From: a virus
Lineage: Duplodnaviria; Heunggongvirae; Uroviricota; Caudoviricetes
DNA: 40,738 nucleotides
Virus record (IMG/VR): IMGVR_UViG_640753023_000013
Direction: 5' to 3' (one strand)
Made by a program: the position numbers and the translations under genes. The notes under the pieces were generated by a model. That model saw only the letters and a program-made list of their open reading frames with translations, ran no database searches and had not been told where the DNA came from. Every line of letters starts with the position of its first letter. Within the stretch, counting starts at the first letter, position 1. Shown in pieces: positions 6,610 through 35,071 of the stretch.

Positions 6610-6624
6610 TTACCTTTCAGGTAA
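6610..6624. promoter_or_regulatory. Operator palindrome TTACC-TTTCA-GGTAA (site 1, perfect)
   Basis: Between tailspike start and the LexA-box gene. Confidence 0.6.
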
Positions 6625-6661: not shown

Positions 6662-6681
6662 TACTGTATAAATATACAGTT
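6662..6681. promoter_or_regulatory. LexA (SOS) box
   Basis: TACTGTATAAATATACAGTT, 18/20 match to consensus TACTGTATATATATACAGTA, 20 bp upstream of the ATG at 6701. Confidence 0.8.
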
Positions 6682-6700: not shown

Positions 6701-6958
6701 ATGCAGCAGTATCACTATCCACTGGAAGACGGATTTACCGAAAGGATTCACACGCCGGGAGGCGTCAGGTCACTGGTGGAGGGATCGCACTTGATGAAAT
6801 TACTCCGGGATCTCGATAAGGATGGATTTAATGTCGATGGCCCACTTGCCGAACTGACTGCACTGATTAACTACGTCACCAGCTCACAGATGTCTATGCG
6901 GGATCTGCAAACACATCTCGACTATTGTGCCGAACAATTACGAAAACAAACCAGATAA
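6701..6958 (+). CDS. Small antirepressor-related protein (homolog of the C-terminal domain of the downstream BRO-N protein)
   Basis: ATG with GGAGAAG RBS; residues 20-85 align with the C-terminus of the 7274-7969 product (LMxLL, DG, RDxQTH); ORF track start 6578 rejected. Confidence 0.6.
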   Translation: MQQYHYPLEDGFTERIHTPGGVRSLVEGSHLMKLLRDLDKDGFNVDGPLAELTALINYVTSSQMSMRDLQTHLDYCAEQLRKQTR

Positions 6959-7092
6959 GGTTTGCAATTACCAAGTGGAGTGCTTATATTTACCTTTGAG
7001 ATAAATTTACATCGCACTCCTCTTGTGCCATAGTAATCGGGCACTGGCAAAATCCAGTGCCGGGATTGGCGTCCCGGATTACTAAAAGGCGC

Positions 7093-7118
7093 ATTCACCG
7101 CGCAAGCGGTTTTTTTAT
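7093..7118 (+). terminator. Short hairpin plus T-run in the leader of the BRO-N gene
   Basis: CCGCgcaaGCGG followed by ttttttt. Confidence 0.4.
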
Positions 7119-7273
7119 GCGTATAGCACGGCCACATTCGTATTATGGTGGGCTGTGTGGGGGCACCGAAAGGTGCGCCGGGTCCTTTTAGCCGGTTACG
7201 CCAACCCTGCACAGTTCACCACCAACCGATTGGCGTCGGTAGTGGTGATTAACCAGACTAAAAGGTAACCACT

Positions 7274-7969
7274 ATGACAGCTACAAAAAGCACGTCCATT
7301 TTTTCTTTCGAATCCCAAGCCGATATACGGGTAATCGTCATTAATGGTGAGCCATGGTTTATCGCTTCAGATGTTTGTCGGGCTATAGGCATAGCAAACC
7401 ATCGAGATGCTGTTCGAAAACTTGATGATGATGAGAAGGGCGTCGCTTCAACCGACACCCCTGGCGGTGAGCAAGAATCGATCATCATCTCCGAGTCAGG
7501 CCTCTACACACTGATCCTCCGCTGCCGCGACGCAGTGACACCAGGCACTATCCCCTACCGCTTTCGTAAATGGGTTACAGGTGAGGTTCTTCCTCAGATC
7601 CGCCGCACCGGAAGCTACATTAAAAACTCGCTCCCGCAGGAAGAACGCATAAAGATGGTTGCCGACCAGGTAGCCAACGCCACGGCGTCAGCAGTAATGC
7701 AGGCGATGAAGATAGAGAACAAAACCTACAGCGCCCCGCTGAAGCCCGGCTACCGCAGCCTGATTCACTCGCCGTCTGGTGTTCTCGGCCTGACGGAAAA
7801 CTCACTGCTGATGAATCTGCTGAACCAGTTACAGGAAGACGGGCACGACGTATCGGGCGCGGCGGCGGAGGTGACCACCATGTTCTGCTACATCGTCGGT
7901 GTGAGTAAATGCCTGCGTGATATCCAGACCCACGCGGAATACATCAACGACAAGGCAGGGTTCTTCTGA
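7274..7969 (+). CDS. BRO-N domain antirepressor-type protein
   Basis: N-terminal Bro-N signature (IRVIVINGEPWFIASDVCRAIG, DDDEKG); C-terminal domain shared with the 6701 gene. Confidence 0.8.
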   Translation: MTATKSTSIFSFESQADIRVIVINGEPWFIASDVCRAIGIANHRDAVRKLDDDEKGVASTDTPGGEQESIIISESGLYTLILRCRDAVTPGTIPYRFRKWVTGEVLPQIRRTGSYIKNSLPQEERIKMVADQVANATASAVMQAMKIENKTYSAPLKPGYRSLIHSPSGVLGLTENSLLMNLLNQLQEDGHDVSGAAAEVTTMFCYIVGVSKCLRDIQTHAEYINDKAGFF

Positions 7970-8041: not shown

Positions 8042-8056
8042 TTACCTCAAGGGTAA
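8042..8056. promoter_or_regulatory. Operator palindrome TTACC-TCAAG-GGTAA (site 2, perfect), overlapping a candidate promoter (TTGCAG-N17-TACTAT)
   Basis: 60 bp upstream of the moron gene at 8116. Confidence 0.55.
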
Positions 8057-9030: not shown

Positions 9031-9039
9031 TGTGACATG

Positions 9040-9420
9040 TCACGCAACGCAATTATTACCGCGCCATGTAACATTTTTAATAATCTTATCAGCACCAAAC
9101 TCAACGTAAACAGAGCAACTGAAATGGAGTGTATAACCGCCATCAGTTGTTGCGTATGTGTTTGAATATATAGTATTACCAATTAGATTAGACGTAGTAT
9201 TATACGTTGTGGTTTGTGGTACGTTATAACTACCAGAGCTTGAGTAAACATACACTCTGTTTCCATCTGGAGATGTAAGCTCTCCCTGAGGATACCCCCA
9301 CTGCTGAACCATTGCGTCTATACTCTGCCCGCGCCACGTAAGCATATTTCTTTCAAACTGTGCAGCTGACTGGCATCCAACGAGAAGCATAAATCCAAAA
9401 ATCAAAAATACTTTTCTCAT
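9040..9420 (-). CDS. Prophage lipoprotein (candidate superinfection-exclusion or conversion protein)
   Basis: Signal peptide with lipobox LLVGC, Thr/Ser/Tyr-rich mature part; ATG at 9420 (track start 9456 rejected). Confidence 0.6.
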   Translation of the reverse strand: MRKVFLIFGFMLLVGCQSAAQFERNMLTWRGQSIDAMVQQWGYPQGELTSPDGNRVYVYSSSGSYNVPQTTTYNTTSNLIGNTIYSNTYATTDGGYTLHFSCSVYVEFGADKIIKNVTWRGNNCVA

Positions 9421-17448: not shown

Positions 17449-19919
17449 CAGAATCCCCCAACAGTAAGGCGAGGAATAACGGCAAGAACAGACAGTGGCA
17501 ACGGGTCAAGCTGACGGATTCTTACACGTCCGTTTTTGCCCCAGTTACTGTCCAGTTTCACTTCTACTTTTCCGGTAGCATCATCAACAGGATCATCGTA
17601 GAACTCGAATTCACGCTGTGGATATTCGTACCATTTACCGCCGGGCGTAGTCGCCCAGATGCCGCGACTGGCATTCACAACCAGAGTAACGGACGGGATC
17701 ACCTGTTTTTTGTCCAGCAGCGTTTCCTGTCCGTTAATGTTGATATCCAGTGTTTCGAATTCAGCAGTTATTGGCAGGCCGATATGCACTACAGCCCCCG
17801 GTGATTCCAGCGTGACGGCACCTCCGGAAACAACTTTCTGTGGCTCCACGTTCGCATCAGAAAGAATGTTTACGGTCTGTCCTTCAAGATGAGACAGGCC
17901 TCCAAATGTCCGGCGCGCCATCTGCCAGTTCGTGGTGGTCACATTCCTGAGGGATGGCGGGACGTTCCTGTTAGCACGAACCACTACAGCGGTATTGCTG
18001 GTTAAAGAAATAATGTCGCAACGTAATTCTTTTGACACTTCATCGCCAGTATCAGGATCAGTTCCGGTATAAGGGAACTGTAGTTGCGCACCGACATCAC
18101 TACTGGTGAAGTACGCACCACCAGAAACACTGATTGTATATTCCGCGCGGTAATCCCATTCACCAGAACCACCAGTGATGGTCATCGTTCTGTCAGACGT
18201 ATTTCTTCCATCATAGCTAAGGCCAGAATCAACAAAGAAAGCATCTTCATCGCTGGTAAATAAACGGCTGGACAGTCTCTCGATGTATCTCACTGTTTGC
18301 CCGTTAACGGTTCTGTTAACGACGAAATACACCGCATCTTCATTGCCTTCGCTGATACTGCATGTGCTTTCATATTTTCCGGTACTGGACTGTGGTGCCC
18401 ATGCAAAAACCTGTTGATCACGCAAATAGGTCATCACCAGTAATTTACCGTCATCACGAATACAGAAGGCGCTGGAGTAAGGGACAATCGAGAAGCACCA
18501 GTCAACAATGCTGTGCTTCTGAAAAAGATGATTGGCAAGGATGGTCAGGTCATTCCCCTGATAGCCGTCAACATCGAATGAGTAGGCCAGATCACGGACA
18601 ACACTGCCTTTCTCCTGGACGAACAGAGCAATATTCGCCACGGCAATTGGTGGGACATTGCTCGAGCCATTTGATCCCTGAGAGCTGAATGCAAATGATG
18701 ATGGGGTTAACACTTTGTTCTGGTCGCCGGTGATGACGTACTCACCTCCGGAAGTCAGCGCCACCAGCGAACCAACATCAATCAGGTGGCGGATCTCATT
18801 AACCTGACGTCCGGCATAGGTGTAGATAATTCTGTCGTCATCCTGCGTAGGATTGCTTTTGCCAAAATCCTTATAATCACCGGTACGGCTGGCCCAGATA
18901 GTCTGAGGGAACGCAGTCGATGCGGCGAAGTAAAGACGTTGTTGATAATAAACAACAGTGCCAGGATAACCATTAACACTGTTCCAGGCATATTTAGCCC
19001 ATTTATAGCTGGCATTATCCTCGCCAACTACCTGCGAAGGGATATAGGAAATCACCTCGGCAGTTGCAGTAGTTCCATTTGCAGCAGTGATACGGGCAAT
19101 GCCAAAACCACTGTGCAGATATTCCCACTCAATGCCAATATCATCATCACCGGATCCGCCCCAGCCATCCCATGATGTGCCTTCTGTATGCGAAGGGCGC
19201 AAAGTACCTGTTTTGCCTGCTGTAACGGCGCGATAGTAGTTACTGTCTGCACGGCGAATATCGCCAATCGACGTACTCTTACTGGTTTCCCATACCGGCA
19301 CTGAATCCACTGCAGGCTGTTCCAGATAGAACAATTTGCCTACCTGCTCCGCGCCAAAAATAGAGGCGCTTGCCGTTAACGTAATTGTCCCGGTGCTGGC
19401 GCTGGCATAAACCGTCACTGACTCGTCAATATTGATATCTTCAAATGGCCCGTTCTTCGTTACCACATCAACCAGTTGCCAGTTGTCATGCGCATAGCGA
19501 CGCAACTCTTTCGGCGGGTATGCCGGATGAACCAGCGTAAGCACGTCGGCGCTTTGCGTGAATTTAATTCGGAACAGATCGGCTTCAGTATATGGCGTGG
19601 CAATTTCATAAATAACATTGCTGCTGTTCAGCACCAACGCACCATCTTTGATAACGCGCATGTACTGGTGTCCGAACTCCAGAGCATAGGTCTGAACCGT
19701 CGAGAACTGGAACGGGATCAGGCGGCATTTCCGATTTGGGTATTTGGCGGCACCGACAAAACGCGTACCAGGTCGATTCTCAACGCCGCCATACTGCCGC
19801 ACGATAAAGTTATCGCACTTGCGCAAAGCTACCTGGTACTTCGCCATGTCGATACGACCGTACAACGACGGTCCAATCTCACCACCGGCAAAGCTGGGCT
19901 GGATCCAACTGATAGCCAT
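17448..19919 (-). CDS. Tail tube/nozzle protein (tail tubular B-like), 823 aa
   Basis: Position after the gp11-like gene; size typical of podovirus tail tube B. Confidence 0.6.
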   Translation of the reverse strand: MAISWIQPSFAGGEIGPSLYGRIDMAKYQVALRKCDNFIVRQYGGVENRPGTRFVGAAKYPNRKCRLIPFQFSTVQTYALEFGHQYMRVIKDGALVLNSSNVIYEIATPYTEADLFRIKFTQSADVLTLVHPAYPPKELRRYAHDNWQLVDVVTKNGPFEDINIDESVTVYASASTGTITLTASASIFGAEQVGKLFYLEQPAVDSVPVWETSKSTSIGDIRRADSNYYRAVTAGKTGTLRPSHTEGTSWDGWGGSGDDDIGIEWEYLHSGFGIARITAANGTTATAEVISYIPSQVVGEDNASYKWAKYAWNSVNGYPGTVVYYQQRLYFAASTAFPQTIWASRTGDYKDFGKSNPTQDDDRIIYTYAGRQVNEIRHLIDVGSLVALTSGGEYVITGDQNKVLTPSSFAFSSQGSNGSSNVPPIAVANIALFVQEKGSVVRDLAYSFDVDGYQGNDLTILANHLFQKHSIVDWCFSIVPYSSAFCIRDDGKLLVMTYLRDQQVFAWAPQSSTGKYESTCSISEGNEDAVYFVVNRTVNGQTVRYIERLSSRLFTSDEDAFFVDSGLSYDGRNTSDRTMTITGGSGEWDYRAEYTISVSGGAYFTSSDVGAQLQFPYTGTDPDTGDEVSKELRCDIISLTSNTAVVVRANRNVPPSLRNVTTTNWQMARRTFGGLSHLEGQTVNILSDANVEPQKVVSGGAVTLESPGAVVHIGLPITAEFETLDININGQETLLDKKQVIPSVTLVVNASRGIWATTPGGKWYEYPQREFEFYDDPVDDATGKVEVKLDSNWGKNGRVRIRQLDPLPLSVLAVIPRLTVGGF

Positions 19920-25715: not shown

Positions 25716-25730
25716 TTACCTTTCAGGTAG
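25716..25730. promoter_or_regulatory. Operator palindrome TTACC-TTTCA-GGTAg (site 3, one mismatch), next to a TTGACA -35-like hexamer at 25694-25699
   Basis: Same core and flank as site 1. Confidence 0.5.
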
Positions 25731-26052: not shown

Positions 26053-26129
26053 GTGGCATTAGCTCAGTTGGACAGAGCAACCGCCTTCTAAGCGGTTGGT
26101 CGCGGGTTCGAATCCTGCATGCCACGCCA
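26053..26129 (+). tRNA. tRNA-Arg (anticodon TCT, reads AGA), phage-encoded
   Basis: Cloverleaf: acceptor GTGGCAT/ATGCCAC, anticodon stem ACCGC/GCGGT with loop CTTCTAA, T-loop GGTTCGAATCC, genomic CCA; differs from E. coli argU in acceptor and anticodon stems. Confidence 0.9.
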
Positions 26130-26712: not shown

Positions 26713-26724
26713 GTGACATGTCAC
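26713..26724. repeat. Palindrome GTGACATGTCAC (copy 2 of 3)
   Basis: Perfect 12-bp palindrome 5 nt after the stop of the 26328 gene. Confidence 0.7.
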
Positions 26725-26798: not shown

Positions 26799-28274
26799 TT
26801 AAGCATAGGGATCGTAATCTGTGATGGCCTTGCCTTGCTGGTTCTGCTGCCCGGGAATTCGCAGACGCTTCGACACAGGGAACGCAAACGTCAGCAGTAG
26901 CGCATCGCCTTTACCCGGCGAACGCCCAAGTCGCTCTTTGATATCTTCCTTCGGTTCGATAACGATTTTACCGTCCACGCGAACTTTGTACTCTGCCGCC
27001 GACAGGTCGTCCGCTGTTTCCTGGTCATCCAGCATGCCGCCCAGCCTCAGCCATGTCTTGCATGAGTTGAACATCTCCCCACGCTTGTTAAGCATCTGCG
27101 GGTCAGTAGACGCGCCACCGAACGGAACAAGTTGCCATGTACGCCCCCAACCGTCACCGATTGACTTCAGACCGGTACCGTAACCGAAGTCGATGAACAC
27201 CGCGTCAGCCTGGTACTGGTCTTCAAAGTCAGCGATACGCTTCGCCATAATCAGATCGTCGGTGGTCTTGTTGCCAGTCCACAGCACCTTACTGTGTAGC
27301 CCCTGCCGCAGGTATATCACAGCGTCATCAACGCCGGAGTATGCCGGGTCAACGCCGATTATCACCGGAGAATGTGCAACCTGCGCAGCGGTTACCACCC
27401 GTTTCATTGCCTCGTCAGTAAGACCGGTAGGGATAAACTGCAATTCAGATGCATCAGGGAATATGCCACGCACACGGATTTTAACGAAGTCGCTGTCTTC
27501 CCCGTAGTCATCAACCCATTTCTGCAACTGCTGTTTGTTGGTACCTTCCACCGTCCGACTGTCAATCTGCGCAGTTTTCCAGCGGTGTTTATACTTGCGG
27601 AAACATTCACGGAAACGTCCGGTATTACGCGTCGGGTTTCCGAACGCCACCCAGATAATCTCAGTGTCTTCGTCCGTTAGCGCACCCTCGGCAACTTCCC
27701 ACACCAGATCCGCAATGTTCGACGCTTCATCGAATACCACGATGATGCGTTTGCGCTCGTTGTGTAGTCCGGCGAATGCCTCAGTGTTGTGCTCAGACCA
27801 GGGTATTGCGTCAGCCCGCCACCGCTTGTCGTGCCCTGGGTCATTGCTGTACATCGCGGTAGCAGTACAGGTAAACCAGTCTTTCGTGATAGCAAGGTTC
27901 GACCACTTGATAATTTCCGGCCAGGTCTTCGTTCGTAGCTGGTTGTCGGTGTTGGCGGTCACCACGACCTTACAATCCTCGCAAGTGGACATGCCCCAGT
28001 TGATCAGCATTGAGATGAATGCGGATTTACCAATACCGTGACCAGAAGCGCGTGCCAGCATAAGCGGCTGATAGCGCGTCTCTGGATTCTGCAGGTGATC
28101 ACGTATCTCTCGGAACGCATCAGCCTGCCATTGACGTGGGCCGGTAGCATGTGCCAGTTCAGTCCCCTCTTCCCCCCACGGGAACGCATAGAGGGCATAG
28201 CCAAGCGGATCGTGAGTGAACCCTGCAATATCCTCGATCAACTGCTCTTCAGGAGATAACGCTGTATCTGTCAC
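26799..28274 (-). CDS. Terminase large subunit
   Basis: Walker A-like GHGIGKS, 491 aa, GTG start overlapping terminase small stop. Confidence 0.85.
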   Translation of the reverse strand: MTDTALSPEEQLIEDIAGFTHDPLGYALYAFPWGEEGTELAHATGPRQWQADAFREIRDHLQNPETRYQPLMLARASGHGIGKSAFISMLINWGMSTCEDCKVVVTANTDNQLRTKTWPEIIKWSNLAITKDWFTCTATAMYSNDPGHDKRWRADAIPWSEHNTEAFAGLHNERKRIIVVFDEASNIADLVWEVAEGALTDEDTEIIWVAFGNPTRNTGRFRECFRKYKHRWKTAQIDSRTVEGTNKQQLQKWVDDYGEDSDFVKIRVRGIFPDASELQFIPTGLTDEAMKRVVTAAQVAHSPVIIGVDPAYSGVDDAVIYLRQGLHSKVLWTGNKTTDDLIMAKRIADFEDQYQADAVFIDFGYGTGLKSIGDGWGRTWQLVPFGGASTDPQMLNKRGEMFNSCKTWLRLGGMLDDQETADDLSAAEYKVRVDGKIVIEPKEDIKERLGRSPGKGDALLLTFAFPVSKRLRIPGQQNQQGKAITDYDPYA

Positions 28275-28867
28275 TGATTACCATCCTGACGTTCTTTGAG
28301 TCGCTTCCTGGCTGCTGCTATGCGATCAGCAATTGTCACTTTCACATTAACATCCAGGCGTTCTTTGAATGCGTTGACGTCGACGTGCTTACCAATCAGT
28401 TCGAGGTTCTTCACCTTGTCAGGCCATTTAATTTTTTTGAGGATTGTCTCTATCGAATCCTCGTTCATGTTCATGATGGTCGATGACAGATCAAAGCCAC
28501 TAAGCGTAGTGCGCCAGATTTTCGGCCACTCGCGGATTGGCTTAAGGCTCCCATCGTCGTTGAGGATGTCGATCACGTCCATCTGGTCGATCTCCACCAG
28601 GCGCATGAGAACGTAATCAGCACTGACGCGCATTCGTTTGTTGCGCTCCTCCATCAACTCGGCAATCCGTTTTTGAATGCGTTCATCGCGCATCATGACA
28701 CTGGCTTTAACTGCCGCTGTATTTGGGGAGAATCCTGCGTTAATCGCTGCCTGAGTCTGGTTTTCAGGCGTTTTGATGTATGACTGGCAATAAGCCTCCT
28801 GCATTGCTGTGAGCGGCTTAAATTGCGTTGATTTGCGTTTATAGGTTTTAGGTTCAGCAGGCATCAT
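28271..28867 (-). CDS. Terminase small subunit (start revised from the TTG at 28945)
   Basis: ATG at 28867/28864 with GGTGG RBS; region 28868-28945 holds an operator palindrome and a terminator. Confidence 0.55.
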   Translation of the reverse strand: MMPAEPKTYKRKSTQFKPLTAMQEAYCQSYIKTPENQTQAAINAGFSPNTAAVKASVMMRDERIQKRIAELMEERNKRMRVSADYVLMRLVEIDQMDVIDILNDDGSLKPIREWPKIWRTTLSGFDLSSTIMNMNEDSIETILKKIKWPDKVKNLELIGKHVDVNAFKERLDVNVKVTIADRIAAARKRLKERQDGNQ

Positions 28868-28884
28868 AACCACCATGGTAATAG

Positions 28885-28899
28885 TTACCGTTGTGGTAA
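28885..28899. promoter_or_regulatory. Operator palindrome TTACC-GTTGT-GGTAA (site 4, perfect), 18 nt upstream of the terminase small start
   Basis: Perfect half-sites. Confidence 0.55.
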
Positions 28900-28910
28900 T
28901 AGTACCATGC

Positions 28911-28936
28911 AAAATAAAGCCGCCATAGTTGGCGGC
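28911..28936 (-). terminator. Rho-independent terminator on the minus strand just upstream of the terminase genes
   Basis: GCCGCC-aactat-GGCGGC followed by tttatttt on the minus strand. Confidence 0.55.
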
Positions 28937-28941
28937 AGTAT

Positions 28942-29154
28942 TCAAAGTCCATCAAATTCATCGTAAAAACTCTCGTCAAGATACCCTTCCCATTTACCGC
29001 GAATGAAAATTACATCCTCGCCGCAAGGGTGCTGACTGTCGATAACTATATCCCTCCTGGCGCAACCATACTTATGCATGAGAAATTTAACCTCTTTCGG
29101 AAAATTTGCTGAGTTATCTCTCATATCTTCAAGGTCGTAGCGTATTTTTGGCAT
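28942..29154 (-). CDS. Hypothetical protein
   Basis: ATG at 29154 with GAAGG RBS (track starts at a GTG at 29175). Confidence 0.45.
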   Translation of the reverse strand: MPKIRYDLEDMRDNSANFPKEVKFLMHKYGCARRDIVIDSQHPCGEDVIFIRGKWEGYLDESFYDEFDGL

Positions 29155-29163
29155 AACACCTTC

Positions 29164-29175
29164 GTGACATGTCAC
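29164..29175. repeat. Palindrome GTGACATGTCAC (copy 3 of 3)
   Basis: Perfect 12-bp palindrome at the junction of the 29172-29519 and 28942-29154 genes. Confidence 0.7.
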
Positions 29176-29519
29176 ACTATTAATTTCGTTTCATGCCAGC
29201 CTTTAGTCACCCAGCATTGTGAGTCACCATTACACGGGCATGAATTAACGGGAACTCTCTCGCCGCACTTACCGCAAAGTTTTCTGCTGATCGATTTTAT
29301 ACGCCCGCGCACACGTGCATCATCCTGGCGGATCAGCAGCGCGATGTACTCGGCCATTTCATAGGGATCGCGACCAGGGCGCCGGGCGGCGCAGTTCCGC
29401 GCCAGCATTTCCTGCTCCTGCTTATCCAGCACCAGTTCAATTTTGCGCTCACCGGCGGCGGACTGCCGAGCGCGCTGCGCGGCTTTGCGTTCTGCGGGGG
29501 ATTTAGCCACGAATCGCAC
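29172..29519 (-). CDS. Cys-rich hypothetical protein (CxxC...CPC), candidate late-gene regulator
   Basis: 115 aa, basic N-terminal half, C-terminal CGKCGERVPVNSCPCNGDSQC; GTG start, weak RBS. Confidence 0.45.
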   Translation of the reverse strand: MRFVAKSPAERKAAQRARQSAAGERKIELVLDKQEQEMLARNCAARRPGRDPYEMAEYIALLIRQDDARVRGRIKSISRKLCGKCGERVPVNSCPCNGDSQCWVTKGWHETKLIV

Positions 29520-29625
29520 TCCACGCCAGATTGATTAATGACTCCCAGGCAATATAAACCAGGATACCAGCAGCCAGGCCGAAACCAATCACCATGGCAT
29601 AAAGCAGAGCGTTGCACTTGTTCAT
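29503..29625 (-). CDS. 40-aa single-TM membrane peptide
   Basis: ATG overlapping the upstream stop (TAATG) with strong RBS GGAGGTGA; hydrophobic core. Confidence 0.5.
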   Translation of the reverse strand: MNKCNALLYAMVIGFGLAAGILVYIAWESLINLAWSAIRG

Positions 29626-30155
29626 TACTTCACCTCCTGCGGCGGTTCCGGTAGAGGCATCCAGTACAAGGCGTTCCCTAACCACGATAAAGTGCCGTCG
29701 CTCAACTCCACGTATTCCCCTTGTACCTGTCCTGCCATATACTCGCCGTGCTTTGAATAAATTAAAATCCAATCATCTTGAGCGGGCATTCGCTCACTAC
29801 AGCTTATCCAACCATCCGGAGTTACCGGATAGTTGCCCGACAGCTCGTTCAACTTGTAAGTTTGGCTTACAGGTTCGGCTTCCAGTTCTGCAATGCGCTT
29901 CTCTGCAGCTTCCAGCTCAACACGCAGCTTCCCTACCGTTAGCGCAATATCCTCGTTCTCCTGGTCACGGCGTTTGATGTATTGCTGGTTTCTTTCCCGT
30001 TCATCCAACAATGCCAGCGCGATATCTGGCGAAAAGTGCTTCATAAAATCGTTAAGCGCATTAATTCGCTGATCGAAAGGCATTACAGGTGCTTCACCAG
30101 CAATTTTTGTTTTTTCAGCGATTTCACGAAGCTTTTGATAATCAATCTTGCTCAC
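29625..30155 (-). CDS. Ead/Ea22-like protein with C-terminal DUF551
   Basis: C-terminal W...YWMPLPEPP signature of DUF551; GTG start with GGAGG RBS. Confidence 0.65.
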   Translation of the reverse strand: MSKIDYQKLREIAEKTKIAGEAPVMPFDQRINALNDFMKHFSPDIALALLDERERNQQYIKRRDQENEDIALTVGKLRVELEAAEKRIAELEAEPVSQTYKLNELSGNYPVTPDGWISCSERMPAQDDWILIYSKHGEYMAGQVQGEYVELSDGTLSWLGNALYWMPLPEPPQEVK

Positions 30156-30565
30156 TGGTTGCCTCCTTCGCGAAGCTGTTCAGCAATACTTACGCATATC
30201 TCTGCGCCTCTAATCAGCCCCGGAACGTTCTTGTTTGGCCCAACTTCACCATCAACAAAATCAATCATCGCGTTACGAGCCATATCCACCCCCTGCGCAC
30301 GTACTTCAGCCAGGAGAGCGTCGGTAGCTGGGGTTTCCGTGAAGTTGTCCTCCCAACCGTAGTACTCCTGACGACAGAAGTTATTAAATTCCTTCTCCGA
30401 CTGTTTAAGCGCCGCATTCTCCGCTGCCAGCGCCGCGCACCTGGCCTCAAGAGCGGCAACCACTTCCTGATGGTCTTTGTACTTAACGTATGAGCCGGAG
30501 ATGTCATCACCTTCGGTGTTTAGCCATGCGTCATTGCAATTCACTGCGTAGGTTCTGATGCTCAT
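30152..30565 (-). CDS. Ead/Ea22-like protein
   Basis: Shares AAENAALK and TPATDALLAEV segments with the 31045-31524 product. Confidence 0.6.
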   Translation of the reverse strand: MSIRTYAVNCNDAWLNTEGDDISGSYVKYKDHQEVVAALEARCAALAAENAALKQSEKEFNNFCRQEYYGWEDNFTETPATDALLAEVRAQGVDMARNAMIDFVDGEVGPNKNVPGLIRGAEICVSIAEQLREGGNQ

Positions 30566-31933: not shown

Positions 31934-31948
31934 TTACCTCTGAGGTAA
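31934..31948. promoter_or_regulatory. Operator palindrome TTACC-TCTGA-GGTAA (site 5, perfect), 4 nt from the DUF1064 start codon
   Basis: Perfect half-sites; overlaps the RBS. Confidence 0.55.
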
Positions 31949-31995
31949 TTAAAAACCACATAAGACACGAAATCAATAGAGTTTAGAATATTTTG

Positions 31996-32010
31996 TTACC
32001 CAACAGGTAA
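31996..32010. promoter_or_regulatory. Operator palindrome TTACC-CAACA-GGTAA (site 6, perfect)
   Basis: Perfect half-sites, 48 bp from site 5. Confidence 0.55.
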
Positions 32011-33897: not shown

Positions 33898-33912
33898 TTA
33901 CCTTTGAGGTAC
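33898..33912. promoter_or_regulatory. Operator palindrome TTACC-TTTGA-GGTAc (site 7, one mismatch)
   Basis: Between the cro-like terminator and the zinc-ribbon/O genes. Confidence 0.5.
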
Positions 33913-33920
33913 GAATAGAT

Positions 33921-33945
33921 ATGAAAAGACCGCCGGGTGGCGGTC
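33921..33945 (-). terminator. Rho-independent terminator after the cro-like gene
   Basis: GACCGCC-gggt-GGCGGTC with a U-run on the minus strand. Confidence 0.5.
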
Positions 33946-33967
33946 TACAGAGGGTTGTAGCTGGATA

Positions 33968-34234: not shown

Positions 34235-34297
34235 TCACCCATAAGGTAACAAAAATCAAGGATAGTTACCTATGAGGTGCATTTACCTGTTGGGTAA
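34235..34297. promoter_or_regulatory. Immunity operator cluster: three palindrome sites (34235-34249, one mismatch; 34266-34280, two mismatches; 34283-34297, perfect)
   Basis: Three copies of TTACC-N5-GGTAA in the 154-bp repressor/cro intergenic region. Confidence 0.65.
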
Positions 34298-34352: not shown

Positions 34353-34937
34353 ATGAAAAGTATCCAGGACGTCCGCAGGCAAAATCTCAACGACTTGATC
34401 GACCGTGAATTCAATGGTGTTCAGACGCGGATGGCAGAAAAACTTGGAACTCAGGCAAATCTGGTAAACCGCTGGGCTCTTGGCAAGAAGGTTATCGGCG
34501 ACCAGGTTGCGCGAAAAATTGAAGCTGCCGCCAATAAACCACGTAACTGGCTTGATATCGATCGCTCGCTTTCTCAGGAAGGTTTTCAGCCTGTCGGCCC
34601 GAGCGATATAGGTCAGCTGGCGGCTCACAACCTGGAACGCTGGATGAGCGAAAGCCGCGACCTTTCAACACAGGGAAAACTTCACCGCGCATCCGGCGTC
34701 GCCCAGGTGACAATCAGCCGCCTGTTAAACAATGAGGTCAGCGTTTCCATTTCCACCCTGGAGAATGTTGCATCCGCATTCGGGCGTCACGGATATGAAC
34801 TACTGATTCACCCGCACGACCCTGCGACTATCAACTATGACCGCTCACGCTACGCATTGTTACCCGAAACCGAGAAAGCAAAGATCGAAAGTTACATTGA
34901 ATTTGTCATCAACCAGAACGAAAAAAGCAAACAATAA
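34353..34937 (+). CDS. Prophage repressor with two HTH (XRE-type) domains and no S24 peptidase domain
   Basis: Two HTH-like segments (QTRMAEKLGTQANLVNRW and LHRASGVAQVTISRLL); no Ala-Gly/Ser-Lys self-cleavage module. Confidence 0.7.
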   Translation: MKSIQDVRRQNLNDLIDREFNGVQTRMAEKLGTQANLVNRWALGKKVIGDQVARKIEAAANKPRNWLDIDRSLSQEGFQPVGPSDIGQLAAHNLERWMSESRDLSTQGKLHRASGVAQVTISRLLNNEVSVSISTLENVASAFGRHGYELLIHPHDPATINYDRSRYALLPETEKAKIESYIEFVINQNEKSKQ

Positions 34938-34957
34938 AACTATATTTTTCAGTAAGT

Positions 34958-34982
34958 AAGCCGCCTCATGGCGGCTTTTTTA
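34958..34982 (+). terminator. Rho-independent terminator after the repressor gene
   Basis: AAGCCGCC-tcat-GGCGGCTT followed by ttttt. Confidence 0.75.
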
Positions 34983-34994
34983 TTGCCAGATAGA

Positions 34995-35009
34995 TTACCT
35001 TACGGGTAA
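34995..35009. promoter_or_regulatory. Operator palindrome TTACC-TTACG-GGTAA (site 11, perfect)
   Basis: 20 bp upstream of a TTGACA -35 hexamer. Confidence 0.6.
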
Positions 35010-35028
35010 TTTTTTTAACTCATATCTA

Positions 35029-35057
35029 TTGACACCAAACCAAATAAGCATAATTAT
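35029..35057 (+). promoter_or_regulatory. Candidate sigma70 early-left promoter (TTGACA, 16-17 bp spacer, TAATTA/AATTAT)
   Basis: Consensus -35; -10 candidates directly followed by operator site 12. Confidence 0.4.
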
Positions 35058-35071
35058 TACCTCAACGGTAA
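35057..35071. promoter_or_regulatory. Operator palindrome TTACC-TCAAC-GGTAA (site 12, perfect)
   Basis: Overlaps the -10/+1 region of the early-left promoter. Confidence 0.6.

What the first reader, a model, noticed from the sequence alone, without database searches (positions are those of the whole stretch)
28868..29519. Entry to the late operon: terminator and operator inside the annotated terminase N-terminus
The ORF-track start of terminase small (TTG at 28945) would translate through a minus-strand terminator (28911-28936) and an operator palindrome (28885-28899). The real start is more likely the ATG at 28867/28864. A terminator placed directly before the first late gene recalls lambda tR-prime and Q-type antitermination, and the Cys-rich 115-aa protein upstream is a candidate late regulator.
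Basis: partly seen in the sequence, partly recalled or inferred. Interest (0 to 1): 0.45.

Follow-up and report, generated by a model that had tools for sequence, protein, structure and literature searches.

The report
Repressor-controlled entry to phage packaging genes
The DNA just before the small terminase gene of this epsilon15/phiV10-type E. coli phage holds a transcription terminator and two binding sites for the phage's own repressor, so the annotated gene start is about 27 codons too early; the type phage is already annotated this way, so the finding is correct but ordinary.

Summary
The window is an epsilon15/phiV10/SPC32H-type temperate podophage, and the genes here lie on the minus strand.

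The 224-aa TTG start (28945) of terS is spurious. The true start is ATG 28864. It is invariant in all relatives, whereas ATG 28867 and ATG 28876 are not conserved. Relatives also carry 1-2 nt indels and in-frame stops inside the "extension".

The 81 nt contain three elements:
- a strong intrinsic terminator (28936-28911) that ends the early-right operon;
- a conserved extended -10-like motif, TGnTAsTAT (28907-28899);
- two tandem TTACC-N5-GGTAA palindromes, O1 (28885-28899) and O2 (28867-28881).

This palindrome occurs 13 times in the window (0.65 expected), always between genes, including both sides of a repressor gene homologous to SPC32H Rep (PDB 5D50). The epsilon15 GenBank record already annotates the same site as a repressor-binding site and the same hairpin as a terminator.

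The lambda Q/tR'-type reading is not supported:
- no Q-like protein is encoded;
- the terminator lies upstream of the promoter-like element;
- the terminator is lost with its upstream gene module in two relatives, while the operators stay with terS.

One side observation stands out. The upstream Cys-rich protein family (phrog_536) is tightly linked to a 12-bp palindrome, GTGAC-NN-GTCAC. Its function is unknown.

The parts
28271..28864 (-). terS (small terminase), true CDS of 197 aa starting at ATG 28864
   Evidence: Pfam Terminase_2, E=1.4e-29, and phrog_51; coverage begins at residue 29 of the 224-aa ORF. ATG 28864 is invariant in 14 aligned relatives. TL-2011b, EC.W1-9 and SPC32H annotate 197 aa and epsilon15 annotates 198 aa.
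28865..28945 (-). Spurious N-terminal extension of the ORF-track terS; really a non-coding regulatory leader
   Evidence: Relatives carry 1-2 nt indels here. In-frame stops lie 1-13 codons upstream of the ATG in 5 of 11 relatives, and the TTG at -81 is found only in the E. coli/Klebsiella type. ATG 28867 is ACG or ATT, and ATG 28876 is ACG, AAG or AGG, in close relatives.
28867..28881 (.). Operator O2 (TAACCACCATGGTAA on +; TTACCATGGTGGTTA on -), 1 mismatch; overlaps the Shine-Dalgarno region and abuts the start codon
   Evidence: The arms are kept and the spacer varies in relatives. It is weaker in SPC32H, with 2 mismatches.
28885..28899 (.). Operator O1, a perfect TTACC-N5-GGTAA Rep-binding palindrome
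   Evidence: It corresponds to epsilon15 'protein_bind repressor' 12-27. The arms are invariant across genera except one base in Buttiauxella (TTACT), while the spacer varies.
28899..28907 (-). Candidate extended -10 promoter element TGgTACTAT (inferred)
   Evidence: TG-n-TA-s-TAT is kept in all 14 aligned relatives, including the two that lack the terminator; only n and position 3 of the hexamer vary. Its geometry relative to the operator matches the PL-type promoter at 35057. The two-hexamer scan did not detect it.
28911..28936 (-). Intrinsic terminator at the end of the early-right operon (stem 28936-28919, T-tract 28918-28911)
   Evidence: Annotated as a terminator in epsilon15 (39646-39672) and flagged in phiV10.
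28942..29154 (-). 70-aa accessory gene (77 aa from GTG 29175), phrog_1541, inserted between the gp49-like gene and the terminator
   Evidence: Absent from many close relatives, which keep an 8-codon remnant. About 50% identical to a small ORF next to uvsY in T4-like phages.
29164..29175 (.). Palindrome A, GTGACATGTCAC, overlapping the stop codon of the gp49-like gene
29172..29519 (-). Cys-rich gp49-like protein (phrog_536; 115 aa from GTG 29519, probably 112 aa from GTG 29510)
34353..34937 (+). Rep repressor gene
   Evidence: phmmer hit to PDB 5D50 (SPC32H Rep), E=3.5e-42. 43% identical to the epsilon15 repressor.
34235..34297 (.). Operator pair between rep and the cro-like gene (34235-34249 and 34283-34297)
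34995..35071 (.). Operator pair downstream of rep (34995-35009 and 35057-35071), in the PL-type region
31934..32010 (.). Operator pair upstream of the Holliday-junction resolvase gene (31934-31948 abuts its ATG; 31996-32010)
33898..33912 (.). Operator (1 mismatch) directly after a terminator, upstream of the gp40-like gene
25716..25730 (.). Operator (1 mismatch) upstream of the gp3/portal operon
   Evidence: The equivalent epsilon15 site is 2931-2947.
6610..6624 (.). Operator in the divergent region between the tailspike and SPC32H-type ant genes
   Evidence: The equivalent epsilon15 site is 19895-19911.
6990..7004 (.). Operator (1 mismatch) upstream of isrK/C4 and the Bro-N antirepressor-like gene
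8042..8056 (.). Operator upstream of the 210-aa phrog_1349 gene
26713..26724 (.). Palindrome B, GTGACATGTCAC, between the p03-like gene end and its terminator, convergent with the end of terL
   Evidence: Same position in epsilon15 and SPC32H.
9032..9043 (.). Palindrome C, GTGACATGTCAC, overlapping the stop of the last gene of the late operon, 1 nt before a terminator
   Evidence: Same position in epsilon15 and SPC32H.

Best explanation
The 81 bp that the ORF track reads as the N-terminus of small terminase is the regulatory junction between two transcription units of an epsilon15/SPC32H-type temperate phage.

Read on the minus strand, the order is:
1. The early-right operon: cro-like gene, replication genes, Ead/Ea22-like genes, the gp49-like gene and a 70-aa accessory gene. 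It ends at a strong intrinsic terminator (28936-28911).
2. Two bases after the T-tract comes an extended -10-type promoter element, TGgTACTAT. Its -35 region is occupied by the terminator, so it has no -35.
3. The last T of that -10 is the first base of operator O1 (28899-28885). Operator O2 (28881-28867) follows 18 bp later and covers the ribosome-binding site.
4. terS translation starts at ATG 28864.

In the lysogen, the Rep repressor (34353-34937) binds O1 and O2, as it does the other 11 dispersed operators. This shuts off the packaging operon directly at its own promoter. The terminator insulates the packaging operon from transcription coming down the early operon. After SOS induction, a LexA-controlled antirepressor inactivates Rep, and all Rep-controlled units are released together, including terS-terL.

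Shown here: the terminator, the operator family and its cognate repressor, the true start codon, and the conservation pattern. Inferred: the promoter, direct repression of it, and the induction pathway. The induction pathway rests on homology to SPC32H and on the LexA box at about 6662-6681.
For: **Phage type and gene order.**
- The window is a Uetakevirus-type phage, syntenic with epsilon15.

**Operator.**
- There are 13 copies against 0.65 expected, all intergenic, and they flank the rep gene on both sides.
- Rep is homologous to SPC32H Rep, PDB 5D50, E=3.5e-42.
- The epsilon15 GenBank record annotates the orthologous site as a repressor-binding site at 12-27 and gives six more with the same ATTACC-N5-GGTAAT sequence.
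- SPC32H has the same O1.
- The arms stay constant and the spacers vary among 80 close and 11 distant relatives.

**Terminator.**
- Supported, and annotated in epsilon15 and phiV10.
- Buttiauxella keeps the stem through two G-U wobble changes.

**Promoter-like element.**
- TGnTAsTAT is invariant except at n and position 3, even where the upstream module and the terminator are replaced.
- The same -10/operator overlap occurs at the PL-type promoter, TTGACA-17-AATTAT|TACC, near 35057.
- Terminator-then-operator packing recurs at 33898 and 34995.

**Start codon.**
- Supported.

**Induction circuit.**
- A LexA box lies in front of the SPC32H-type ant homologue.
- Secondary literature reports that SPC32H Rep binds DNA as a tetramer that the antirepressor Ant breaks apart (PMC9638917).
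Against: - No transcript or binding data exist for this phage, and the primary epsilon15 and SPC32H papers could not be read.
- The promoter call rests on a 9-nt motif with no -35. The standard two-hexamer scan found no promoter in 28000-30500.
- The last 2-3 bases of the motif overlap the extended operator consensus, so part of its conservation could come from the operator.
- O2 is imperfect everywhere and has 2 mismatches in SPC32H. Its right arm doubles as the Shine-Dalgarno-like GGTGG, which could explain why it is conserved.
- A promoter that is only repressed gives no obvious early/late timing.
Confidence: 0.7

Rival explanations
1. Read-through or roadblock model. There is no promoter at terS. 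The packaging genes are transcribed from the early-right promoter through a leaky or regulated terminator. Rep bound at O1/O2 acts as an elongation roadblock, like the mycobacteriophage L5 'stoperators', that keeps stray transcription out of terS in the lysogen.
For: - The sigma-70 scan found no promoter here.
- The early and packaging operons point the same way and are only about 80 bp apart.
- Operators that abut start codons, as at terS and at 31934, suit a block on elongation or translation as well as on initiation.
Against: - The terminator is a strong canonical one, and no antiterminator was found.
- The TGnTAsTAT motif is conserved independently of what lies upstream.
- Other operators in the genome sit in ordinary promoter positions, between -35 and -10 or just after -10.
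Confidence: 0.15
2. The terminator is a tR'-like barrier in front of the late genes, and the upstream Cys-rich 115-aa protein is a Q-like late regulator that lets RNA polymerase read through it.
For: - The gene lies at the end of the early operon just before the terminator, as Q lies before tR'.
- PHROGs and RefSeq label the family 'transcriptional regulator'.
- The protein has a basic N-terminal helix, a predicted beta-alpha-alpha core and conserved cysteines.
- A palindrome linked to the gene lies a short distance 5' of this terminator and of two others. In Vibrio phage K308 a copy lies 19 nt before terS.
Against: - The protein shows no similarity to any Q family or to any solved structure.
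- No promoter with a Q-binding element lies upstream of the terminator.
- The terminator lies upstream of the conserved promoter-like element.
- The terminator is absent in two relatives whose terS region is otherwise intact.
- Homologues coexist with bona fide Q proteins in N15 and ZF40, and occur in a P2-like phage, all away from the late operon.
- The distance from palindrome to terminator varies from 23 to about 230 nt, and other genes can be inserted between them.
- The 'regulator' label has no experimental basis that I could find.
Confidence: 0.08
3. The tandem 18-bp repeats in front of terS are the packaging recognition (pac) site bound by small terminase, not operators.
For: - They lie immediately upstream of terS.
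- Several database records of this phage group start here.
Against: - The same palindrome occurs at 11 other intergenic sites, including both sides of the repressor gene, whereas a pac site should be unique.
- The record starts follow the convention of starting at terS or after the last stop codon.
Confidence: 0.03
4. The 224-aa TTG-initiated TerS is real, as annotated for phiV10.
For: - An open frame of 27 extra codons exists in the window, in phiV10 and in Klebsiella relatives.
Against: - Relatives have indels and in-frame stops in this stretch.
- The extension is not covered by any terminase profile.
- It would be translated through a terminator hairpin and two operators.
- Four other records annotate the short form.
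Confidence: 0.02

Closest known systems
Salmonella phage epsilon15 (GenBank AY150271.2): annotated repressor-binding site 12-27 before terS and terminator 39646-39672 after gp49
   Same: Same gene order: gp49-like gene, terminator, operator, terS. Same operator sequence class, ATTACC-N5-GGTAAT. The hairpin is the same apart from one loop base. The dispersed operator positions also match: before terS, before gp3/portal, before the tailspike, next to rep, and before the resolvase.
   Different: - The window carries an extra 70-aa gene between the gp49-like gene and the terminator.
- Its Rep is only 43% identical to the epsilon15 repressor.
- Operators are also detectable between rep and the cro-like gene.
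- O2 and the TGnTAsTAT motif are not annotated in epsilon15.
Salmonella phage SPC32H Rep-Ant-LexA switch (PDB 5D50/5D4Z)
   Same: Homologous Rep (E=3.5e-42). A homologous small Ant gene next to the tailspike gene, with a LexA box in front of it. The same O1 in front of terS.
   Different: Binding of Rep to the terS operator was not verified from the literature here. The window also carries a second, Bro-N-type antirepressor-like gene preceded by isrK/C4 RNAs.
Phage P1 C1 repressor regulon (many dispersed operators; C4 antisense RNA controlling ant)
   Same: One repressor acts on more than ten operators scattered over the genome, in front of individual operons rather than at one master switch. 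There is a C4-type RNA upstream of an antirepressor-like gene. The P1 side of this comparison rests on my own knowledge.
   Different: C1 operators are asymmetric 17-mers and C1 is unrelated to Rep. P1 late genes additionally need the activator Lpa; no such activator is identified here.
Lambda PR'-qut-tR' / Q late antitermination
   Same: A terminator stands between a regulator-like gene at the end of the early operon and the first virion-assembly gene.
   Different: No Q homologue is present. The order of elements is terminator then promoter/operator, rather than promoter then terminator. The terminator is dispensable in relatives. The late entry carries repressor operators, which lambda PR' does not.
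Mycobacteriophage L5 gp71 'stoperators'
   Same: Many repressor sites lie in short intergenic spaces throughout the genome, including within or ahead of structural gene operons.
   Different: Stoperators are asymmetric, orientation-dependent and act on elongation. The sites here are palindromic and mostly sit at promoter-like positions.

Membership tests
epsilon15/SPC32H-type Rep operator | 15-17 bp palindrome (A)TTACC-N5-GGTAA(T) | tested here: met
   O1 is perfect and O2 has 1 mismatch. The sequence class is identical to the seven sites annotated in epsilon15.
epsilon15/SPC32H-type Rep operator | The cognate Rep-family repressor is encoded in the same genome | tested here: met
   ORF 34353-34937 against PDB 5D50, E=3.5e-42 over residues 1-190.
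epsilon15/SPC32H-type Rep operator | Multiple copies confined to intergenic or promoter regions, including those flanking rep | tested here: met
   13 sites against 0.65 expected. All lie between genes as delimited by homology.
epsilon15/SPC32H-type Rep operator | Rep physically binds the site and represses transcription | not testable with these tools
   Needs EMSA or footprinting and reporter assays.
Rho-independent terminator | GC-rich hairpin immediately followed by a U-tract on the transcribed strand | tested here: met
   7-bp stem (6 GC pairs), 4-nt loop, followed by TTTATTTT. Folding energy -17.3 kcal/mol, z-score -3.76.
Rho-independent terminator | Stem pairing maintained in evolution | tested here: inconclusive
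   The stem is almost invariant. Only Buttiauxella varies, with two changes that both keep pairing as G-U. This is too little variation for a covariation test.
Lambda Q / tR'-type late antitermination | A Q-family antiterminator is encoded upstream | tested here: not met
   No Q or antiterminator family hit for the 115-aa protein or for the other early-right ORFs that were scanned, in Pfam and PHROGs; NCBIfam was run on five of them. No structural match either.
Lambda Q / tR'-type late antitermination | The terminator lies downstream of a constitutive late promoter carrying the Q-loading site | tested here: not met
   No promoter-like site lies between the gp49-like stop and the terminator. 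The only conserved promoter-like motif is 3' of the terminator.
Lambda Q / tR'-type late antitermination | The terminator is an obligatory part of the late-operon entry | tested here: not met
   It is absent in the Pseudocitrobacter and Erwinia dacicola prophages, which keep the operators and terS.
Terminase small subunit, Terminase_2 (PF03592) | Profile match above the curated cut-off | tested here: met
   104 bits against a cut-off of 26.1, over residues 45-200 of the 224-aa ORF.
Ribbon-helix-helix DNA-binding proteins (for the 115-aa protein) | N-terminal beta-strand followed by two helices, and a profile or fold match to RHH proteins | tested here: inconclusive
   AlphaFold2 predicts a strand at residues 27-28 and helices at 33-46 and 55-70, with pLDDT about 81. 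The whole model has pLDDT 64.6 and no Foldseek or HMM hit.

The most novel reading that the evidence does not exclude
The Cys-rich 112/115-aa protein (phrog_536) may be a sequence-specific nucleic-acid-binding factor whose target is the palindrome (Y)GTGAC-NN-GTCAC(R). That palindrome is almost always found at the 3' end of the protein's own gene.

In epsilon15-type phages the three copies each sit just 5' of an intrinsic terminator at an operon end. One of these is the terminator in front of terS. The protein could therefore tune termination or read-through there. That would make it a non-Q switch, or an insulator, governing passage from the early operon into the packaging genes.

The gene-site linkage itself is solid. 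The function is speculation.
Probability: 0.12. Interest if true: 0.6.

Novelty: already known. Interest (0 to 1): 0.2.

Why it matters
- **Annotation.** terS of phiV10-type records should start at the ATG equivalent to 28864, giving 197 aa. The 224-aa form propagates an error.
- **Biology.** This phage group does not use a lambda-style cascade at the entry to its packaging genes. Instead it places operators for the prophage repressor directly on each operon. This is relevant to people who engineer phiV10 or epsilon15 reporter phages and to models of induction. It is already implicit in the epsilon15 annotation and in the SPC32H work.
- **New lead.** The phrog_536 gene-palindrome module is the one item that could open a new question. 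It is widespread, found in N15-like, P2-like, ZF40-like, Vibrio and epsilon15-like phages, and it has no assigned function.

Tried and rejected
1. **Q/N-type antiterminator search.** Pfam and PHROGs over the scanned ORFs of the early-right operon, and NCBIfam on five of them, found nothing.
2. **Structure route for the 115-aa protein.** AlphaFold2 on 43 homologues gave pLDDT 64.6. Foldseek against PDB gave no hit with E below 5. A profile search against PDB sequences gave none.
3. **PADLOC for the small accessory genes.** No hits.
4. **Primary literature.** The epsilon15 genome paper and the two SPC32H Rep/Ant papers are not held under either PMC id or DOI. Full-text searches for the palindrome sequence returned only unrelated papers.
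5. **A third operator, 'O0', overlapping GGTAC at 28901-28905.** Rejected, because relatives have GTTAC, GATAC or GATAG there. That variation breaks a GGTAA arm but preserves TGn.
6. **A promoter upstream of the terminator using the GTGACA of the palindrome as its -35.** A plausible -10 (TAAATT) exists only in epsilon15 and C. braakii and not in the other relatives, so this was rejected (read by eye).
7. **The 10-nt inverted repeat CATGGTAATA / TAGTACCATG.** It is specific to this window's ATG variant and not conserved, so it was treated as chance.
8. **The palindrome as a class-I activator site for the terS promoter.** Rejected, because its distance to the -10 varies: about -73 in epsilon15, about -91 in E. 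coli relatives that lack the insert, and about -330 in the window.
Full report
**What the window is.**
The region around the finding is 92-98% identical to E. coli phages of the phiV10/TL-2011b/EC.W1-9 group and about 80-86% identical to Salmonella phages epsilon15, SPN1S and SPC32H. Mapping epsilon15 proteins onto the window by tblastn shows full synteny in reverse orientation:
- lysis genes at the left end;
- the late structural operon on the minus strand, from 25625 down to about 9640;
- terL at 26799-28274 and terS at 28271-28864;
- the early-right operon from 34198 down to 28942;
- the repressor at 34353-34937;
- the early-left recombination genes and the integrase at the right end.

All genes relevant to the finding are on the minus strand.

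**Check of the observation.**
The mechanical ORF list gives terS as 28271..28945 from a TTG start, 224 aa, with in-frame ATGs at 28876, 28867 and 28864.

On the minus strand the extension contains GCCGCCAACTATGGCGGC followed by TTTATTTT (28936-28911). The terminator scan picks this up. In a 51-nt context it folds at -17.3 kcal/mol with a z-score of -3.76.

TTACCGTTGTGGTAA sits at 28885-28899.

**The true start of terS.**
Four lines of evidence agree on ATG 28864:
1. Pfam Terminase_2 and phrog_51 cover the protein only from residues 45 and 29 of the 224-aa ORF.
2. Among 80 close relatives from IMG/VR, ATG 28864 never varies. ATG 28867 is ACG or ATT in some. The ATG at 28876 is ACG, AAG or AGG in most. 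These are second-codon-position changes that would be radical in a protein.
3. In 11 more distant prophages (TerS 42-89% identical) and in epsilon15, the only conserved start is the 28864 equivalent. The proteins begin MPAEPK, MAATPK or MVANPK. The upstream stretch carries 1-2 nt indels, and in 5 of 11 sequences the frame is closed by a stop within 1-13 codons of the ATG.
4. The TL-2011b, EC.W1-9, SPC32H and epsilon15 records annotate the short form. Only phiV10 uses the TTG.

**The palindrome is a Rep operator.**
TTACC-N5-GGTAA with at most one mismatch occurs 13 times in the window, against 0.65 expected and a maximum of 3 in 100 shuffles. With the gene map, every copy is intergenic:

| Position(s) | Location |
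|---|---|
| 34235, 34283 | between rep and the cro-like gene |
| 34995, 35057 | downstream of rep, before the early-left operon |
| 33898 | before the gp40-like gene |
| 31934, 31996 | before the resolvase gene |
| 28867, 28885 | before terS |
| 25716 | before gp3/portal |
| 6610 | in the divergent tailspike/ant region |
| 6990 | before isrK/C4 and a Bro-N antirepressor-like gene |
| 8042 | before a 210-aa gene |

The repressor is homologous to SPC32H Rep, whose structure is PDB 5D50, with E=3.5e-42.

The epsilon15 GenBank record already carries 'protein_bind: repressor' features with the sequence ATTACC-N5-GGTAAT. One lies at 12-27, directly before terS, and six more lie at positions that correspond to those in the window. 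SPC32H has the same site before its terS.

In relatives the arms of O1 are constant, apart from a single base in Buttiauxella (TTACT), while the five spacer bases vary freely.

A second copy, O2, lies 18 bp downstream and abuts the start codon. It is always imperfect. The E. coli type has TTACC...GGTTA, most others have TTACT...GGTAA, and SPC32H has two mismatches. It also overlaps the GGTGG ribosome-binding sequence, so its status as an operator is less certain.

**The terminator belongs to the upstream module; the operators belong to terS.**
In 12 of 14 aligned sequences the hairpin and T-tract are present and nearly invariant. Buttiauxella keeps pairing through two G-U changes.

In the Pseudocitrobacter and Erwinia dacicola prophages a different gene abuts terS. 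There the terminator is missing, yet TGnTAsTAT, O1, O2 and the ATG are intact.

Epsilon15 and phiV10 annotate this hairpin as the terminator after the last early gene. It is therefore the end of the early-right operon, not a barrier placed downstream of a late promoter.

**A promoter-like element (inference).**
The motif TG-n-TA-s-TAT lies between the T-tract and O1. Only n (G, T or A) and the third hexamer base (C, G or T) vary among all relatives. This is the pattern expected of an extended -10 promoter, which needs no -35. Here the -35 position falls inside the terminator stem.

The last T of the hexamer is the first base of O1. The same geometry is seen at the PL-type promoter TTGACA-17-AATTAT|TACC near 35057, and at 6990 and 8042. 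Terminator-then-operator packing recurs at 33898 and 34995.

The two-hexamer scan finds no promoter in the region. The promoter therefore remains an inference. Part of the motif's conservation could also reflect the extended operator.

**The Q/tR' interpretation.**
The evidence against it is as follows:
- None of the scanned ORFs of the early-right operon hits a Q or N family (NCBIfam on five of them).
- The 115-aa protein has no Pfam or NCBIfam match. Its only label is the PHROG/RefSeq name 'transcriptional regulator'.
- Its AlphaFold2 model is of low confidence (pLDDT 64.6). It shows a basic N-terminal helix, a beta-alpha-alpha core at residues 27-70 (pLDDT about 81) and an unmodelled Cys-rich tail. 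Foldseek and a PDB profile search return nothing.
- Homologues occur in N15, which has its own Q (gp40). They also occur in Pectobacterium phage ZF40, which has a Q-like gp25; in a P2-like Yersinia phage, just after replication gene A; and in Vibrio siphophages. They usually sit at the end of the early or replication block and not next to the late genes.

Together with the order of elements and the dispensability of the terminator, this leaves the lambda analogy unsupported.

**A side observation that bears on the 'candidate regulator' idea.**
The stop codon of the 115-aa gene lies inside a perfect 12-bp palindrome, GTGACATGTCAC (29164-29175). The exact 12-mer occurs twice more in the window, at 26713 and 9032. 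By my own estimate, about 0.002 copies of a given 12-mer are expected in 40.7 kb.

Each copy sits at the end of a transcription unit. Often the TGA stop lies within its left arm, and an intrinsic terminator follows in the direction of transcription. The same three positions hold in epsilon15 and SPC32H.

The palindrome GTGAC-NN-GTCAC also accompanies the homologous gene in distant phages:
- N15: the stop of gene 46, plus copies at 28550 and 33237.
- ZF40 and the Yersinia P2-like phage.
- Vibrio K308: three copies, one of them 19 nt before the terS ATG.

In 80 IMG/VR loci encoding 57 distinct family members, every locus has at least one copy. Sixty-eight have it within -15 to +60 nt of the stop. 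In total there are 85 copies in 399 kb against 0.38 expected.

Conversely, 26 of 120 viral stretches that contain CGTGACATGTCACG encode the protein within the fetched stretch.

The arms are invariant while the central two bases vary. This points to sequence-specific recognition rather than mere hairpin formation. That the protein binds this site is a reasonable hypothesis. What it does there is unknown. Its positions in N15, including one inside repA, do not point specifically to late-gene control.

**Verdict.**

The architecture is that of the epsilon15/SPC32H group and is already annotated in the type phage. A terminator closes the early-right operon. It is followed immediately by a Rep-controlled entry into the packaging operon, probably with its own promoter.

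The Q-type antitermination reading fails its defining tests. Interest is low for the finding as posed. The phrog_536-palindrome linkage is the only element that may be new.

Noticed in passing
window 29164-29175, 26713-26724, 9032-9043; L007 2142, 19517, 39612; L185 28550, 33237, 39269; L183 21342, 33227, 35942: The palindrome GTGAC-NN-GTCAC is tightly linked to the phrog_536 gene. All 80 IMG/VR loci examined carry it, with 85 copies against 0.38 expected. In epsilon15-type phages it sits just 5' of three operon-end terminators. No literature on it was found.
   Followed up: partly
L147, L155, L158-L166, L170-L182 (about 10 nt 3' of the palindrome): In another clade of phrog_536 loci, a short GC-stem hairpin follows the palindrome. 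The stem shows compensatory changes (CCTG..CAGG, CCCG..CGGG, GCCCG..CGGGC) and has no T-tract. The ribosome-binding site of the next gene comes after it. The layout is nut-site-like, and its meaning is unknown.
   Followed up: no
window 7041-7116 and 7141-7226 (+), upstream of 7274-7969: Rfam matches to isrK (77.9 bits) and C4 antisense RNA (77.7 bits) lie directly upstream of a Bro-N antirepressor-like gene, with a Rep operator at 6990. This is a P1 immI-like module, and it is additional to the SPC32H-type ant gene.
   Followed up: no
window about 6662-6681, upstream of the gp19-like gene (about 6701-6958, +): A near-consensus LexA box, TACTGTATAAATATACAGTT, lies in front of the homologue of SPC32H Ant. 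This matches an SOS-controlled antirepressor circuit.
   Followed up: partly
window 26053-26129 (+): A tRNA-Arg (anticodon TCT) lies in the long non-coding gap between the p03-like gene and gp3, antisense to the late genes. SPC32H has a tRNA-Arg at the equivalent place.
   Followed up: no
window 28942-29154 (-): The 70-aa gene between the gp49-like gene and the terminator is an insertion. Many close relatives lack it and retain only an 8-codon remnant, MHDEFDGF*. Its product is about 50% identical to a small ORF next to uvsY in T4-like phages.
   Followed up: partly
window 33898-33960 and 34940-35010: Two further places where an intrinsic terminator is followed within about 10-15 nt by a Rep operator. 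This is the same compact terminator-then-operator packing as in front of terS.
   Followed up: no
window 31934-31948: A perfect Rep operator ends 3 nt before the ATG of the Holliday-junction resolvase gene, with a second operator 62 bp upstream. This parallels O2 abutting the terS start codon.
   Followed up: no
L092, L093, L094 (about 20-60 nt 3' of the palindrome): In the Pseudocitrobacter, C. werkmanii and Erwinia dacicola prophages, the palindrome after the gp49-like gene is followed by TTGACT-N17-TATACT with a LexA-box-like TACTGTTTAAATGTAC. This suggests an SOS-controlled module inserted between the gp49-like gene and terS.
   Followed up: no
window 29510-29519: The 115-aa ORF probably starts at the second GTG, at 29510, giving 112 aa beginning MAKSPAERK. 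This matches nearly all homologues and the tblastn match to epsilon15 gp49.
   Followed up: partly
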